A stretch of 64,000 bases of DNA from the human T2T-CHM13v2.0 reference genome, Homo sapiens, in assembly GCF_009914755.1 (NCBI RefSeq), contig NC_060943.1; one strand, written 5' to 3'. The position numbers and the translations under genes are program-made. Of this stretch, positions 23,830-27,245 are shown piece after piece. The notes beneath the pieces are model-generated. The model ran no database searches, had not been told where the DNA came from, and worked only from the letters and a program-made list of their open reading frames with translations. Position 1 is the first letter of the stretch. Every line of letters starts with the position of its first letter.

Positions 23830-24468
23830 CTCCCCAAAATGCATGTAGATGTACTCCCGGGCACGCTGGTGCAACTCCACACAGCCAATCTGCTCAGCGA
23901 AGTTGGCGATGCCGATGGCATTGCTGGGGTCCAGCTGCTGCACCAGGAAGTCACTGCAGGCACGGACAACGCTGTCGATCTGGTACATGACAGCACCGTT
24001 CATGACGTGGAGGACACACTTCTCGCCCATGGAGATGGAGGCCGTGTAGGCGAATTCAATGAGGCGCTCCATGACCTTGGGGTGGATACCCTCAATGGAC
24101 ACCACCTCCATGCCCTGCTCCCGCAGCCCGTTGGTGAACATGGCCTTGAAGACAGGGCTGGATGAGGCCAGCACCACCTTGTGGGCCATGAACTGGGCGG
24201 CCGGTGCATCCTGGTACTTGACCTGCAGTGTGACGTCACACAGCTGCTGGCTGAGCCGCAGCTCGTTCATGATGCCAAAGGCCTGCTTGGTATGATCCTC
24301 CAGGGTGTAGCTGAAGGTGCGGTTGCCATGCTGGGAGGGCGTCACCTCCGCCTTGCACTCAGTGGAGGCGTACATCACCGCGTCCCCTGCCCCCTCAGGG
24401 CACTGTGACTGCAGGGGCAGGAATCGGCAGCAGGCCCCAGCCCCGCTAGGCCTGGGATCTGGCTGCAT
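23830..24468 (-). CDS. KEAP1: KEAP1 exon 2 coding part (NTR and BTB domain with C151); full exon 23830-24515
   Basis: ATG at 24468-24466, MQPDPRPS...LCDVTLQV...AHKVVLASSSPVFKAMF...EKCVLHV...YMHFGE; acceptor ctccag| at 24517-24516; donor |gtgagc. Confidence 0.99.
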
Positions 24469-24699
24469 GGGGTTCCAGAAGATAAGCAACACCACCACCT
24501 CTGGCACTCAGGGACCTGGAGGGGAGAGAGCACAGGGCAGAGGGCAGGGGTTGGGACTGGGCCAGCACCTGCCGGGCCTCGTTTTGCAAGATAAAGCAAT
24601 TCCTAGGTCAGTTTTCCTGCAAAGTAGGTGAAGCAGAATCCATTTGCAAACTTGCAAACTTCCCCGACCTGATCAACCTGATTGGCCCAAGAGCCCATC

Positions 24700-25590
24700 T
24701 TAAAACATACATGAAGTCATGTCTCTCCCCTGCTCTGGATCCTCCAATGCCTCCCACAGTACCTAGTAAAACTGAACTCCTCAACAGCCTGCAAAGCCCT
24801 ACGCAATTAGCCCCTGCCACCTCTTCCCTTTGATCACTCTGCTTCAGCAATCTGGCGGCCTTTCCCTTTCTAGAGCATGTTGAGCTCATTCCTTCATTTG
24901 CCTCACCATTTACTGGGCACCTACTGTATGCCAGGCACTGATCTGGGTGCTGAAGACACAGCAGTGAGCAAAATACAAAAATCCTACCCTGCCAGAGCTG
25001 ACAACTGCAGGGAGGAGCAATCATAAACTAAAATAAGCAAGACCTGGAAAAACAGCTTCATGAAGAAAATTACAACAGCATTGTGACAACGTGAGAATCG
25101 GGTGCAGTTTGTTTGCTTTTTTTTTTTTTTTTTTCAGATGGAGTCTCTCTGTCACCCAGGCTGGAGTGCAATGGCTCGATCTTGGCTCACTGCAACCTCC
25201 GCCTCCCGGGTTCAAGCGATCCTCCTGCCTCAGCCTCCCGAGTAGCTGGGACTACAGGCGTCCGCCACCACACCCGGCTAGTTTTTGTATTTTTAGCAGA
25301 GACTGGGTTTCGCCATGTTGGCCAGGCTGGTCTCAAACTCCTGACCTCAAGTGATCCGCCCGCCTTGGCATCCCGAAGTGCTGGGATTACAGGCGTAAGC
25401 CACCATGCCTGACCCGGGGTGCAGTTTTTTAAAATCTGGCAGACCAAGCCTCTTTGAGAAGGTGAGGTTGGAGCTGAGACAAGGATGAAAATTATTATAA
25501 AGTGGGAGGCTGGGGAGTAGTTTTCCAGGCAGAGGAAACAGTAAGTGCAGTGGCTCAGAGGCTGAGACAGTCAATCTGGAGAATTGGGAA
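24700..25590. mobile_element. L2 LINE remnants in KEAP1 intron 1, interrupted by an Alu
   Basis: L2-like text such as CATTTACTGGGCACCTACTGTATGCCAGGCACTG and CCAGGCAGAGGAAACAGTAAGTGCAGTGGCTCAGAGG. Confidence 0.65.
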
Positions 25591-27131
25591 GGAGTGCAGT
25601 GAGAGCTAAGGACTTAAGGAAGGGTTTCATGGAAACCCCTGGATCCTGGAGGGCCAGGAGATGAGTTATGTGTTTTGTGTTTTGTTTTTCGAGACAGAGT
25701 CTCGCTCTGTTGCCCAGGCTGGAGTACAGTGGTGCGATCTTGGCTCACTGCAACCTCTGCCTCCCGAGTTCAAGATATTCTCGACCGGGCGTGGTGGCTC
25801 ACGCCTGTAATCCCAGCACTTTGGGAGGCCGAGGCAGGCGGATCACAAGGTCAGAAGATCGAGACCATCCTGGCTAACATGGTGAAACCCCATCTCTACT
25901 AAAAATACAAAAAAATTAGCCGGGTGTGGCGGCGGGCGCCTGTAGTCCCAGCTACATGGGAGGCTGAGGCGGGAGAAAGGCGTGAACCCAGGAAGCAGAG
26001 CTTGCAGTGAGCCGAGATCGCACCACTGCATTCCAGCCTGGGTGACAGAACAAGACTCCATCTCAAATAAAACAAAAAAAAGATATTCTCATACTTCGGC
26101 CTCCTGAGTAGCTGGGATTACAGGCACCAGCCACCACGATGGGCTAATTTTTTGTATTTTTAGTAGAGATGGGATTTCACCATGTTGGCCAGGGTGGTCT
26201 CAACCTCCTGGCCTCAAGTGATCCCCCTCCTCGACCTCCCAAAATGCTGGGATTACAGGCATAGGCTGCTGTGCCCAGACGTGAGTTACGTTTCAAAAGG
26301 AGTGGGGGATCTCCAAGTGGCTCCCCACAAGTGGATCTGCAAGTTCTCACTCCCCTCTTTCTGGGACTCAACTCAAAGTCTCCTCTTCCCTGTTTTATTG
26401 TCATCACTGCGCTTGTCAGGAACTGAAATGACCTCCTTTGCTTGTCTGTTGATCGACTGTCTCTCGTCCCCGGCCCCAGCGCCTCAAATGGCAGGGAGAC
26501 CTATGTAGGTCGGCGTCGGGCCAACCCTCTCCTGTGCCTCTCGCCTGGGGCCTGGCACTGCGCAGGGGTCAATAAACGGGTGGTTGGCTAACTGCCCTGC
26601 CACCGTGCCTGCCAGAGCGGCCTCCTCCACCCTCCCTGGGTGCCACTCGGCCCCCACTCTGGTGCCAAGGCCCTGGGTTTGCCTCTTGGTCTTTGGCCAA
26701 TCGGTCAACAATGCCCCTTGGGCACCGGGCACTTCCCCCACCCTACAAAGCGGCAAGTGGGCGACTGCGCATGCCCCTCCTGAGCCTCCACCAGGCCCAG
26801 TGAGGCGAGGAAGTGACCCCACCGCGGCCTCTCGGCTGCCAACCCCAGAACGCAGATCGAGCCCCTCAACGCCTCGGAGCCCCCGGGCCTCCTTCTGCGC
26901 AGCGCCTCCTGGTTCTCTCGCTCGGTTTCCGCCGCTCCCGGGCCACCCCAAGAGTTGCGCCGTCCAACAAAAATATCCACCCAGGTCGCGCCCTCCTGGC
27001 CCTCCGAGTCCTGGCGGGGAACTCGGAGGCGCCCTGGGCCGTGGCGCCCGTTTTCCTGGTCTCCGGGCACGGCCGCAGGGGCGCTCGCGGCCCGCGATGC
27101 CCGCAGCCCGGGCACATCCCGCCTCACTCAC

Positions 27132-27245
27132 CCCGCCATGGCCGCGCTCCGGCTCCGCCTCCACCGCCCGAGCCCCGGCGCCTCCATCGCTGCGCGTGGG
27201 GGAGGCGCGGAGCGCGCGCAGGTCACCATGACTAAGCAGAGCCGG
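27132..27245 (-). other. KEAP1: KEAP1 alternative non-coding first exon (proximal, '1b'); 5' end approximate
   Basis: Consensus donor GGG|GTGAGT at 27131; matches my recollection of one KEAP1 mRNA leader. Confidence 0.8.
27223..27238 (+). promoter_or_regulatory. Antioxidant response element (NRF2/sMAF ARE)
   Basis: TCACCATGACTAAGCA is an exact match to the extended ARE consensus TMAnnRTGAYnnnGCR. Confidence 0.8.

What the first reader, a model, noticed from the sequence alone, without database searches (positions are those of the whole stretch)
24446..27229. Promoter-choice translational switch: KEAP1 exon 1b feeds a strong uORF overlapping the main start, exon 1a has no AUG
Seen: exon 1b holds three AUGs in one frame (27229, 27187, 27139), each with G at -3 and G at +4. 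After splicing 27132->24515 the frame stays open, passes the KEAP1 AUG out of frame and stops at TAG 24448-24446. The longest product is a 55-aa peptide (MVTCARSAPPPRAAMEAPGLGRWRRSRSAAMAGSLSARGGGVAYLLEPHAARSQA*). The KEAP1 AUG itself has weak context (CCC ATG C). Exon 1a (27676-27813) has no AUG. Known: overlapping uORFs block reinitiation and are strongly repressive, and can be relieved under eIF2alpha stress. Inference: first-exon choice sets KEAP1 protein output, so 1b mRNA may be poorly translated or stress-gated and may make a micropeptide.
Basis: partly seen in the sequence, partly recalled or inferred. Interest (0 to 1): 0.8.

Follow-up and report, generated by a model that had tools for sequence, protein, structure and literature searches.

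The report
KEAP1 exon 1b overlapping upstream ORF
A minor KEAP1 mRNA variant begins with an alternative first exon whose upstream start codons open a short reading frame that runs over the normal KEAP1 start, so this variant should make less full-length KEAP1 and may favour a known shorter form; the design is a common one and is untested for this gene.

Summary
The sequence facts hold. Three in-frame ATGs sit at 27229, 27187 and 27139, each with G at -3 and +4. The frame stays open across the 27132->24515 splice and stops at TAG 24448-24446, 23 nt past the weak KEAP1 start at 24468. Exon 1a has no ATG.

RefSeq exon 1b is 27132-27206, so only two of the three ATGs lie in the annotated mRNA. The first ATG lies 23 nt upstream of that 5' end, inside a consensus antioxidant response element at 27228-27238.

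By scanning rules the 25/41-codon overlapping uORF should lower initiation at Met1 on the minor NM_012289 isoform. Strong uAUG contexts and the lack of a separate short uORF argue against stress relief. A micropeptide role has no support.

The first AUG after the uORF stop is in-frame Met32, 70 nt downstream. Met32 is the published start of the Keap1-beta proteoform. It is also where 4 of 5 non-mammalian KEAP1 models begin.

Seven full-text searches found no paper on a KEAP1 uORF. TSS use, ribosome occupancy and mammalian conservation could not be tested. Verdict: a real, ordinary-type element; a new member of a known kind with a testable proteoform angle.

The parts
27676..27791 (-). KEAP1 exon 1a (RefSeq Select NM_203500.2). 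The leader has no AUG. Donor is AAG|GTAAGG.
27132..27206 (-). KEAP1 exon 1b (NM_012289.4), 75 nt, holding uAUG2 and uAUG3. Donor is GGG|GTGAGT.
27227..27229 (-). uAUG1 (TTAGTC ATG G). It lies 23 nt upstream of the annotated exon 1b 5' end and inside the ARE. It would be transcribed only from a more upstream TSS.
27185..27187 (-). uAUG2 (GCAGCG ATG G), 19 nt from the annotated 5' end. It opens the 41-codon uoORF.
27137..27139 (-). uAUG3 (GCGGCC ATG G, near-optimal context), 67 nt from the annotated 5' end. It opens the 25-codon uoORF.
27228..27238 (+). Consensus antioxidant response element ATGACTAAGCA (RTGACnnnGCR), on the strand opposite to KEAP1 and 22-32 nt upstream of the exon 1b 5' end. 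It overlaps uAUG1.
   Evidence: The same 9-mer is listed as a functional ARE in other genes in PMC6007815 Table 1.
27251..27261 (-). Second ARE-like motif, GTGACACGGCG.
24469..24515 (-). Shared 47-nt exon-2 leader with no AUG. An in-frame TGA at 24510-24508 blocks any N-terminal extension from either first exon.
24466..24468 (-). KEAP1 Met1 AUG in weak context (AACCCC ATG C).
24446..24448 (-). uoORF stop codon TAG, ending 23 nt after the A of the Met1 AUG.
24373..24375 (-). KEAP1 Met32 AUG (GCGGTG ATG T). It is the first AUG in any frame after the uoORF stop, 70 nt downstream, and is the start of the published Keap1-beta.
   Evidence: papers

Best explanation
Exon 1b is the first exon of a minor KEAP1 mRNA (NM_012289). 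It starts about 470 nt downstream of exon 1a, within the same CpG island, and just downstream of an ARE.

Its annotated leader carries two in-frame uAUGs in strong context: 27187, only 19 nt from the 5' end, and 27139, near-optimal. Both open one overlapping uORF of 41 or 25 codons. This uORF reads past the weak Met1 AUG out of frame and stops 23 nt later.

Ribosomes that start on a uAUG cannot start at Met1. Met1-initiated KEAP1 from this isoform therefore depends on leaky scanning and should be low. This is constitutive dampening, not a stress-relieved gate.

After the short uORF ends, some 40S subunits should resume scanning. The next AUG they meet is in-frame Met32, so what exon-1b mRNA yields should be biased toward the N-terminally shorter Keap1-beta.

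Exon-1a mRNA has no uAUG. It should give mostly Met1 product, plus some Met32 product by leaky scanning.

Shown: the sequence anatomy, the annotation, and the existence of Met32 initiation (literature). Inferred: uAUG use, repression, reinitiation, and any physiological weight.
For: - Anatomy, frames, contexts and splice sites.
- Annotation and RefSeq Select status of exon 1a.
- Met32 is the first AUG after the uoORF stop, 70 nt away.
- Overlapping uORFs prevent main-ORF initiation: PMC13631847, Fig. 3 legend passage.
- Keap1 alpha/beta arise from Met1 and Met32. M32G and M32L mutants abolish beta. An endogenous doublet is seen in 3 cell lines and only the shorter band in 4: bioRxiv 10.1101/2022.11.22.517594, section 2.1 part 1 and passages.
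- An edited line with a 1-nt insertion before CDS base 23 still makes beta: PMC9499251, passages. The frame entered there stops at TGA 24397, before Met32. Met32 is therefore reachable when the Met1 ORF ends early.
- Met32 lies upstream of the BTB domain (Pfam aa 67-178). All 14 KEAP1 BTB-only sequences among 16 PDB matches start at aa 45-51.
- 4 of 5 non-mammalian KEAP1 models with an N-terminal Met begin exactly at the Met32 column.
Against: - No TSS, Ribo-seq, polysome or reporter data were available, so uAUG use is unproven.
- Exon 1a is the RefSeq Select transcript, so 1b may be rare and its effect on total KEAP1 small.
- uAUGs are common in human leaders (about half, recalled). The local statistics are only mildly unusual.
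- Beta is made from cDNA constructs, which most likely lack the native leaders (my inference; the methods say full-length cDNA in pcDNA3). The uoORF is therefore not needed for beta.
- Reinitiation after 25-41 codons may be inefficient, and post-termination 40S might also move back to Met1, 20 nt upstream.
- uoORF termination far upstream of four exon junctions may trigger NMD and simply remove 1b mRNA.
- Conservation of the uAUGs in mammals could not be tested.
Confidence: 0.5

Rival explanations
1. Incidental by-product. Exon 1b is a low-level alternative start inside a broad CpG-island promoter. Its ATGs are there by chance (the first because the ARE contains CATG). The transcript is poorly translated or degraded by NMD and has no regulatory role.
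For: - Exon 1a is RefSeq Select.
- ATG clustering is only mildly unusual: 12.9% of shuffles give >=2 overlapping uAUGs, and 65.7% give >=1.
- uAUG1 is explained by the ARE.
- The peptide is low-complexity with no homologue.
- No literature on a KEAP1 uORF was found.
Against: - Both annotated uAUGs have G at -3 and G at +4; only 1.1% of shuffles match this.
- The exon has a good donor and is a curated RefSeq transcript.
- An ARE sits 22-32 nt upstream. NRF2 occupancy of a KEAP1-promoter ARE is reported, which suggests a regulated start.
Confidence: 0.3
2. One reading: a stress-gated switch. Exon-1b mRNA is repressed in unstressed cells and its KEAP1 translation is relieved when eIF2alpha is phosphorylated.
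For: An overlapping uORF is a component of ISR-responsive leaders such as ATF4 (PMC13631847 passage). KEAP1 belongs to a stress pathway.
Against: - There is no separate short 5' uORF. All three uAUGs share one frame and one stop, so the delayed-reinitiation design is absent.
- uAUG contexts are strong, unlike bypass-type uORFs (recalled: CHOP, GADD34).
- With less ternary complex, post-uoORF 40S would tend to miss Met32. The next AUGs are an out-of-frame one at 24329 and then Met67, at the edge of the BTB domain.
Confidence: 0.1
3. The uoORF product (25-55 aa) is a functional micropeptide.
For: The ORF is open and its uAUGs are in good context.
Against: - No named protein of 22-70 aa shares three 5-residue words with the query, which was the exon-1b-encoded part plus 8 in-frame upstream codons. 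A blank means little here.
- 64-69% of residues are Ala/Gly/Arg/Ser/Pro, and the pI is 11.7-11.8 for the two longer forms (8.5 for the 25-aa form). This is typical of translated GC-rich leader.
- Its last 7 codons are constrained by the overlapping KEAP1 codons.
Confidence: 0.05

Closest known systems
GARS1 long 5' UTR isoform (Alexandrova et al. 2015, as summarised in PMC13631847; passages read)
   Same: Alternative TSS gives two leaders. The uORF in one leader overlaps and masks the first main-ORF start, and allows reinitiation at a downstream in-frame start. Leader choice thereby selects the proteoform.
   Different: In GARS1 the longer leader also shows IRES activity and the two proteoforms differ in targeting. 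For KEAP1 nothing is tested, the first exons are separate spliced exons, and both proteoforms keep all domains.
NFE2L2 dual promoters P1/P2 with isoform-specific translation (PMC13626756; abstract and a term search)
   Same: Same pathway. Two promoters give mRNAs that differ only in the first exon. They have different polysome loading and different N-termini (16 aa).
   Different: The NFE2L2 effect is ascribed to a long structured 5' UTR and the start codon lies in exon 1 of P1. 'uORF' occurs 0 times in that paper. KEAP1 leaders are not discussed there.
ATF4/ATF5-type ISR leaders (PMC13631847 passage)
   Same: An inhibitory uORF overlaps the main start out of frame.
   Different: These leaders need a short first uORF that ends before the inhibitory one. 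Exon 1b has a single nested frame with one stop.
C/EBP alpha/beta uORF-directed start-site choice; MDM2 P1/P2 and BRCA1 exon 1a/1b leaders (recalled, not read here)
   Same: A small out-of-frame uORF steers ribosomes to a downstream in-frame AUG (C/EBP). Alternative first exons with uAUGs lower translation (MDM2, BRCA1).
   Different: The C/EBP uORF is in the single common leader. These comparisons rest on memory only.

Membership tests
Upstream overlapping ORF (uoORF) repressor | AUG upstream of the main AUG in the mature annotated mRNA | tested here: met
   Two ATGs (27187, 27139) lie inside RefSeq exon 1b; the third (27229) lies outside it.
Upstream overlapping ORF (uoORF) repressor | [quoted passage not shown] | tested here: met
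   Frame +2; TAG 24448-24446 ends 23 nt past the A of the Met1 AUG.
Upstream overlapping ORF (uoORF) repressor | Ribosomes initiate on the uAUG | not testable with these tools
   No Ribo-seq was available. Only the context was checked (G at -3, G at +4). Ribo-seq ORF catalogues are in supplements, which are closed.
Upstream overlapping ORF (uoORF) repressor | Removing the uAUG raises main-ORF output | not testable with these tools
   Needs reporters or genome editing.
Upstream overlapping ORF (uoORF) repressor | Conservation of the uAUG, frame and stop in related species | not testable with these tools
   No mammalian genomes were reachable. The own-genome search found only the locus itself.
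ISR-gated leader, delayed-reinitiation type (ATF4/ATF5) | A short 5' uORF that ends before the inhibitory overlapping uORF | tested here: not met
   All uAUGs share one frame and one stop. There is no other ATG in the leader.
ISR-gated leader, bypass type (CHOP/GADD34; recalled) | Poor start context of the inhibitory uORF | tested here: not met
   GCAGCG ATG G and GCGGCC ATG G.
uORF-directed start-site selection (GARS1 / C/EBP type) | The uORF masks the first start, and the next AUG after its stop is a downstream in-frame start | tested here: met
   Met32 AUG at 24375 is the first ATG in any frame after the stop, with a 70-nt gap.
uORF-directed start-site selection (GARS1 / C/EBP type) | The downstream-start proteoform exists in cells | tested here: met
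   Literature only: Keap1-beta from Met32, endogenous and ectopic.
uORF-directed start-site selection (GARS1 / C/EBP type) | The proteoform ratio depends on the uORF or leader | not testable with these tools
   In the two Keap1 alpha/beta papers, 'UTR' and 'leaky' each occur 0 times, and 'uORF' occurs 0 times in the preprint, where it was searched.
Antioxidant response element (NRF2-sMAF site) | Core TGACnnnGC, extended RTGACnnnGCR | tested here: met
   ATGACTAAGCA at 27228-27238 (+). The core occurs 24 times in the window, and about 31 are expected by my arithmetic, so the motif alone is weak evidence.
Antioxidant response element (NRF2-sMAF site) | NRF2 occupancy at this site | tested here: inconclusive
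   PMC3424561 reports NRF2 binding to an ARE in the KEAP1 promoter, within 2.5 kb of the TSS and conserved with rodents. Only 2 core motifs lie within 2.5 kb of either TSS, at 27228-27238 and 27251-27261. The exact site is in Supplementary Fig. S3, which is not viewable.

The most novel reading that the evidence does not exclude
First-exon choice at KEAP1 is a proteoform switch wired into the NRF2 feedback loop. The ARE next to exon 1b makes that exon the NRF2-inducible start. Its uoORF carries ribosomes past Met1, which heads an N-terminal extension absent from reptile and amphibian gene models. Ribosomes are then released 70 nt before the ancestral start, Met32. NRF2-induced KEAP1 mRNA would therefore yield mainly the longer-lived Keap1-beta, and at a damped rate. 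This would explain why some cell lines show only the shorter KEAP1 band.
Probability: 0.2. Interest if true: 0.7.

Novelty: new member of a known kind. Interest (0 to 1): 0.45.

Why it matters
KEAP1 dosage sets NRF2 activity, and KEAP1 is a frequent tumour suppressor in lung cancer.

- If exon-1b mRNA is translated poorly, or into a different proteoform, mRNA-level measurements that pool both isoforms misjudge KEAP1 protein output.
- Non-coding variants at the two uAUGs or at the uoORF stop would become interpretable.
- The origin of the Keap1 alpha/beta ratio would gain a testable mechanism. The two forms are reported to differ in half-life (6.4 h vs 28.9 h, ectopic), and some cell lines show only the shorter one.
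- It would mirror the dual-promoter translational control recently described for the partner gene NFE2L2.
- An ARE-proximal, translationally damped isoform would add a delay element to the NRF2-KEAP1 negative feedback loop.

Tried and rejected
1. Literature on a KEAP1 uORF. Seven full-text searches were run:
- KEAP1 + uORF: 84 papers, 25 listed.
- KEAP1 / 'upstream open reading' / NM_012289.
- Six phrases such as 'KEAP1 uORF': 1 irrelevant hit.
- KEAP1 + uAUG: 8 papers, none relevant by title.
- KEAP1 + alternative promoter terms.
- 'KEAP1 translation' phrases.
- Keap1alpha / Keap1beta.

Three candidate papers mention KEAP1 only in passing. No paper on a KEAP1 uORF was found. Apostrophes cannot be searched, so phrases such as "5'UTR" were not covered.

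2. Peptide homologues: none.
3. Retrocopy or paralogue carrying an exon-1b leader: the own-genome search found 1 match, the locus itself.
4. Special leader structure: rejected. MFE z-scores are +1.69 (1a), +1.72 (1b) and +0.65 (extended 1b) against 200 shuffles each.
5. Known RNA families: 17 sub-threshold hits. None falls in the first exons on either strand. Sixteen are Alu-type hits in intron 1, and one is a weak HOTTIP_3 hit (E 0.21) on the opposite strand over the exon-2 leader.
6. N-terminal extension from either first exon: excluded by the in-frame TGA at 24510.
7. Whether the classic 'P1' methylation region is the 1b promoter: rejected. The published primers map to 27903-28213, upstream of exon 1a.
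8. PMC4001311, PMC9287733 and PMC3677633 gave nothing on the KEAP1 TSS or ARE position.
9. Lee et al. 2007 (the INrf2 ARE paper) is not held.
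Full report
**Observation**

I read both stretches on the minus strand and rebuilt both spliced leaders from the window in a script. The three ATGs are at 27229, 27187 and 27139. They are 42 and 48 nt apart, so they share one frame, and each has G at -3 and G at +4.

The exon 1b donor is GGG|GTGAGT (GT at 27131-27130). The shared acceptor AG is at 24517-24516. 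After splicing 27132->24515 the frame is +2 relative to KEAP1. It passes the main ATG (24468, AACCCC ATG C) and stops at TAG 24448-24446, an overlap of 23 nt.

The 47-nt exon-2 leader has none either. An in-frame TGA at 24510 rules out N-terminal extensions from either first exon.

**Annotation**

RefSeq has two KEAP1 mRNAs. NM_203500.2 uses exon 1a and is flagged 'select'. NM_012289.4 uses exon 1b, 27132-27206.

The first ATG (27229) is therefore 23 nt upstream of the annotated 5' end, so the annotated mRNA holds two uAUGs, not three. uAUG2 is only 19 nt from the annotated 5' end. By recalled scanning rules that is near the lower limit for efficient recognition. uAUG3 (GCGGCC ATG G) is 67 nt in and near-optimal.

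The hg19 coordinates quoted in PMC7554999 and PMC6600322 put the two 5' ends 573 nt apart, against 585 nt here. This suggests an older NM_012289 version began near 27218, still downstream of 27229 (inference, assuming no indels). CpG-island promoters usually start over a broad zone (recalled), so a minority of transcripts could include uAUG1.

**Chance**

The 1234-nt CpG island is 73.5% GC, with limits carried over from the hg19 coordinates. Its minus strand has 8 ATGs, and 4 of them lie within 27229-27117.
- 19.8% of 98-nt windows hold >=2 ATGs and 2.8% hold >=3.
- In 5000 dinucleotide shuffles of the 75-nt exon, >=1 overlapping out-of-frame uAUG arises in 65.7%, >=2 in 12.9%, and >=2 in strong context in 1.1%.
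- For a 109-nt version that includes uAUG1, three in strong context arise in 0.02%.

The test is post hoc. About half of human leaders carry uAUGs (recalled). The pattern is mildly unusual but not evidence of function.

**Surroundings: an ARE at the first ATG**

uAUG1 is part of ATGACTAAGCA on the plus strand (27228-27238). This is a full match to the extended ARE consensus RTGACnnnGCR, and it lies 22-32 nt upstream of the exon 1b 5' end. A second ARE-like motif lies at 27251-27261 on the minus strand.

The core motif is common: 24 hits in the window, about 31 expected by my arithmetic. However, these two are the only core motifs within 2.5 kb of either KEAP1 TSS, and neither lies in a masked repeat.

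Passages of PMC3424561 report the following:
- NRF2 ChIP-seq reads map 'upstream of KEAP1'.
- KEAP1 was among genes with a peak within 2.5 kb of the TSS that contains an ARE.
- The ARE is conserved between humans and rodents.

The exact site is in Supplementary Fig. S3, which I could not see. The identification with 27228-27261 is therefore by elimination and remains inconclusive. The same 9-mer is listed as an experimentally identified ARE in human GCLC, mouse Gsr1 and mouse Hmox1 in Table 1 of PMC6007815.

Two consequences follow. The first ATG has a DNA-level reason to exist, and it probably lies in promoter rather than in mRNA. Exon 1b may also be the NRF2-responsive start (inference).

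**Downstream: Met32**

After the uoORF stop, the first ATG in any frame is the in-frame codon 32 of KEAP1 (24375, GCGGTG ATG T). It is 70 nt downstream.

The preprint 10.1101/2022.11.22.517594 (part 1 of section 2.1 read, plus passages) reports:
- KEAP1 runs as two bands. Alpha starts at Met1 and beta at Met32.
- M32G and M32L abolish beta, and deletion of residues 1-31 gives beta alone.
- An endogenous doublet is seen in 3 cell lines, and only the shorter band in 4.
- Ectopic half-lives are 6.4 h (alpha) and 28.9 h (beta).

PMC9499251 (passages) describes an edited hepatoma line with a 1-nt insertion before CDS base 23 that still expresses beta. The frame entered there stops at TGA 24397, before Met32. 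This shows Met32 is reachable when the ORF begun at Met1 ends early.

In both papers 'UTR' and 'leaky' occur 0 times, and 'uORF' occurs 0 times in the preprint, where it was searched. The leaders were apparently not considered.

Met32 lies upstream of the BTB domain (Pfam aa 67-178). Of 16 PDB sequences matched at E <= 1e-20, 15 are KEAP1. One of these is full-length and 14 are BTB constructs starting at aa 45-51.

A protein search with the exon-2 product returned 9 hits among 15 scored candidates; 164 further candidates of unnamed source were left out. I aligned 7 of the 9.
- Four models (a lizard, a snake, a frog and one EukProt entry) begin exactly at the human Met32 column.
- One turtle model has an unrelated N-terminus.
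- Two bird entries are N-terminally partial.

All are short computational gene models, so this is suggestive only. It hints that Met32 is the ancestral start and that residues 1-31 are a later addition.

**Mechanism**

On exon-1b mRNA, 40S subunits meet uAUG2 (partly bypassed, being close to the cap) and then uAUG3 (strong). Those that initiate translate 41 or 25 codons, read through Met1 out of frame, and terminate 23 nt later. Only subunits that leak past both uAUGs can use Met1. The principle is stated in PMC13631847.

After a short uORF, some 40S subunits resume scanning (same review) and would meet Met32. The expected result is lower total output, enriched for beta.

Exon-1a mRNA should give alpha, plus some beta through the weak Met1 context.

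Stress relief is unlikely. There is no separate short first uORF and the uAUG contexts are strong. Slower reacquisition of ternary complex would make 40S miss Met32 and reach an out-of-frame AUG (24329) and then Met67, at the edge of the BTB domain.

Termination at 24446 lies upstream of four exon junctions, so NMD may also reduce 1b mRNA (inference).

**Other checks**

- The leaders are not unusually structured (z +1.69, +1.72 and +0.65).
- No Rfam family matches the first exons on either strand. All 17 hits are below gathering scores. Sixteen are Alu-type hits in intron 1, and one weak hit lies on the opposite strand over the exon-2 leader.
- The exon-1b-encoded peptide part (queried with 8 extra in-frame upstream codons) has no named homologue of 22-70 aa. 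The uoORF peptide is 64-69% Ala/Gly/Arg/Ser/Pro.
- The human genome holds no second copy of exon 1b.
- The much-studied 'P1' methylation region maps to 27903-28213, upstream of exon 1a and not exon 1b.

**Comparison with what is known**

The closest described case is GARS1, where a uORF in the longer of two TSS-derived leaders masks the first start and allows reinitiation at the downstream start (PMC13631847).

In the same pathway, NFE2L2 has two promoters whose mRNAs differ in polysome loading and in N-terminus (PMC13626756, abstract and a term search). That paper does not mention uORFs or KEAP1 leaders.

ATF4-type gating shares only the overlapping uORF. C/EBP, MDM2 and BRCA1 are recalled analogues that I did not read here.

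**Novelty and verdict**

Seven full-text searches and three spot checks found no paper on a KEAP1 uORF or on leader-dependent KEAP1 translation. Ribo-seq ORF catalogues, which live in supplements I could not open, may already list it.

The element is real in the annotated mRNA and is of a common, well-understood kind. Its physiological weight depends on 1b usage, which I could not measure. The link to Met32/Keap1-beta and to the adjacent ARE is new as far as these searches reach, and it is directly testable.

I score it as a new member of a known kind, with moderate interest.

Noticed in passing
27228-27238 (+) and 27251-27261 (-): Two ARE motifs sit immediately upstream of exon 1b. They are the only TGACnnnGC cores within 2.5 kb of either KEAP1 TSS, so they are the likely site of the published NRF2 ChIP-seq peak.
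   Followed up: partly
24375-24468 (-), KEAP1 codons 1-32; alignment A1: Four of 5 non-mammalian KEAP1 gene models with an N-terminal Met (lizard, snake, frog, one EukProt entry) start at the human Met32 column. Residues 1-31 may be a later N-terminal extension, with Met32 the ancestral start. All are short predicted models.
   Followed up: partly
24373-24377 (-): The +1-frame stop TGA (24377-24375) overlaps the Met32 ATG as TGATG. A CTG in exon 1a (GCAGCC CTG G, leader index 62) opens a 64-codon ORF in that frame, and it ends exactly there. This could be a near-cognate route past Met1 on 1a mRNAs; it is pure speculation.
   Followed up: no
27903-28213 (-): The published KEAP1 'P1' promoter methylation primers and probe (PMC6600322) map here, 112-422 nt upstream of the RefSeq exon 1a 5' end. 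The classic cancer methylation assays therefore probe the 1a promoter, not exon 1b or the ARE.
   Followed up: yes
27262-27268 (-): An AT-rich TTTTATT patch sits in a 73.5% GC island, 56-62 nt upstream of the annotated exon 1b 5' end. If it acted as a TATA-like element, the start would fall just upstream of ATG 27229. This is unexplained.
   Followed up: no
27372-27374 (-): An ATG in near-ideal context (GCCGCC ATG C) lies in intron 1 between the two first exons, in a different frame from the uoORF (position listed). It is not in any annotated exon.
   Followed up: no
26277-27806: RefSeq functional-element rows: 'silent region_10078' (27187-27806) spans exon 1a to the start of exon 1b; 'silent region_10077' is at 26897-27176; an H3K27ac hESC enhancer is at 26503-27058; 'active region_13974' is at 26277-26526. 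A 'silencer' tile at 24488-24782 covers the exon-2 acceptor.
   Followed up: no
25138-26284, both strands: Sub-threshold Rfam hits to Metazoa_SRP, mir-1268, mir-3135, mir-1285 and mir-619 fall in or next to masked repeats of intron 1 (Alu-type sequence). None reaches its gathering score.
   Followed up: yes
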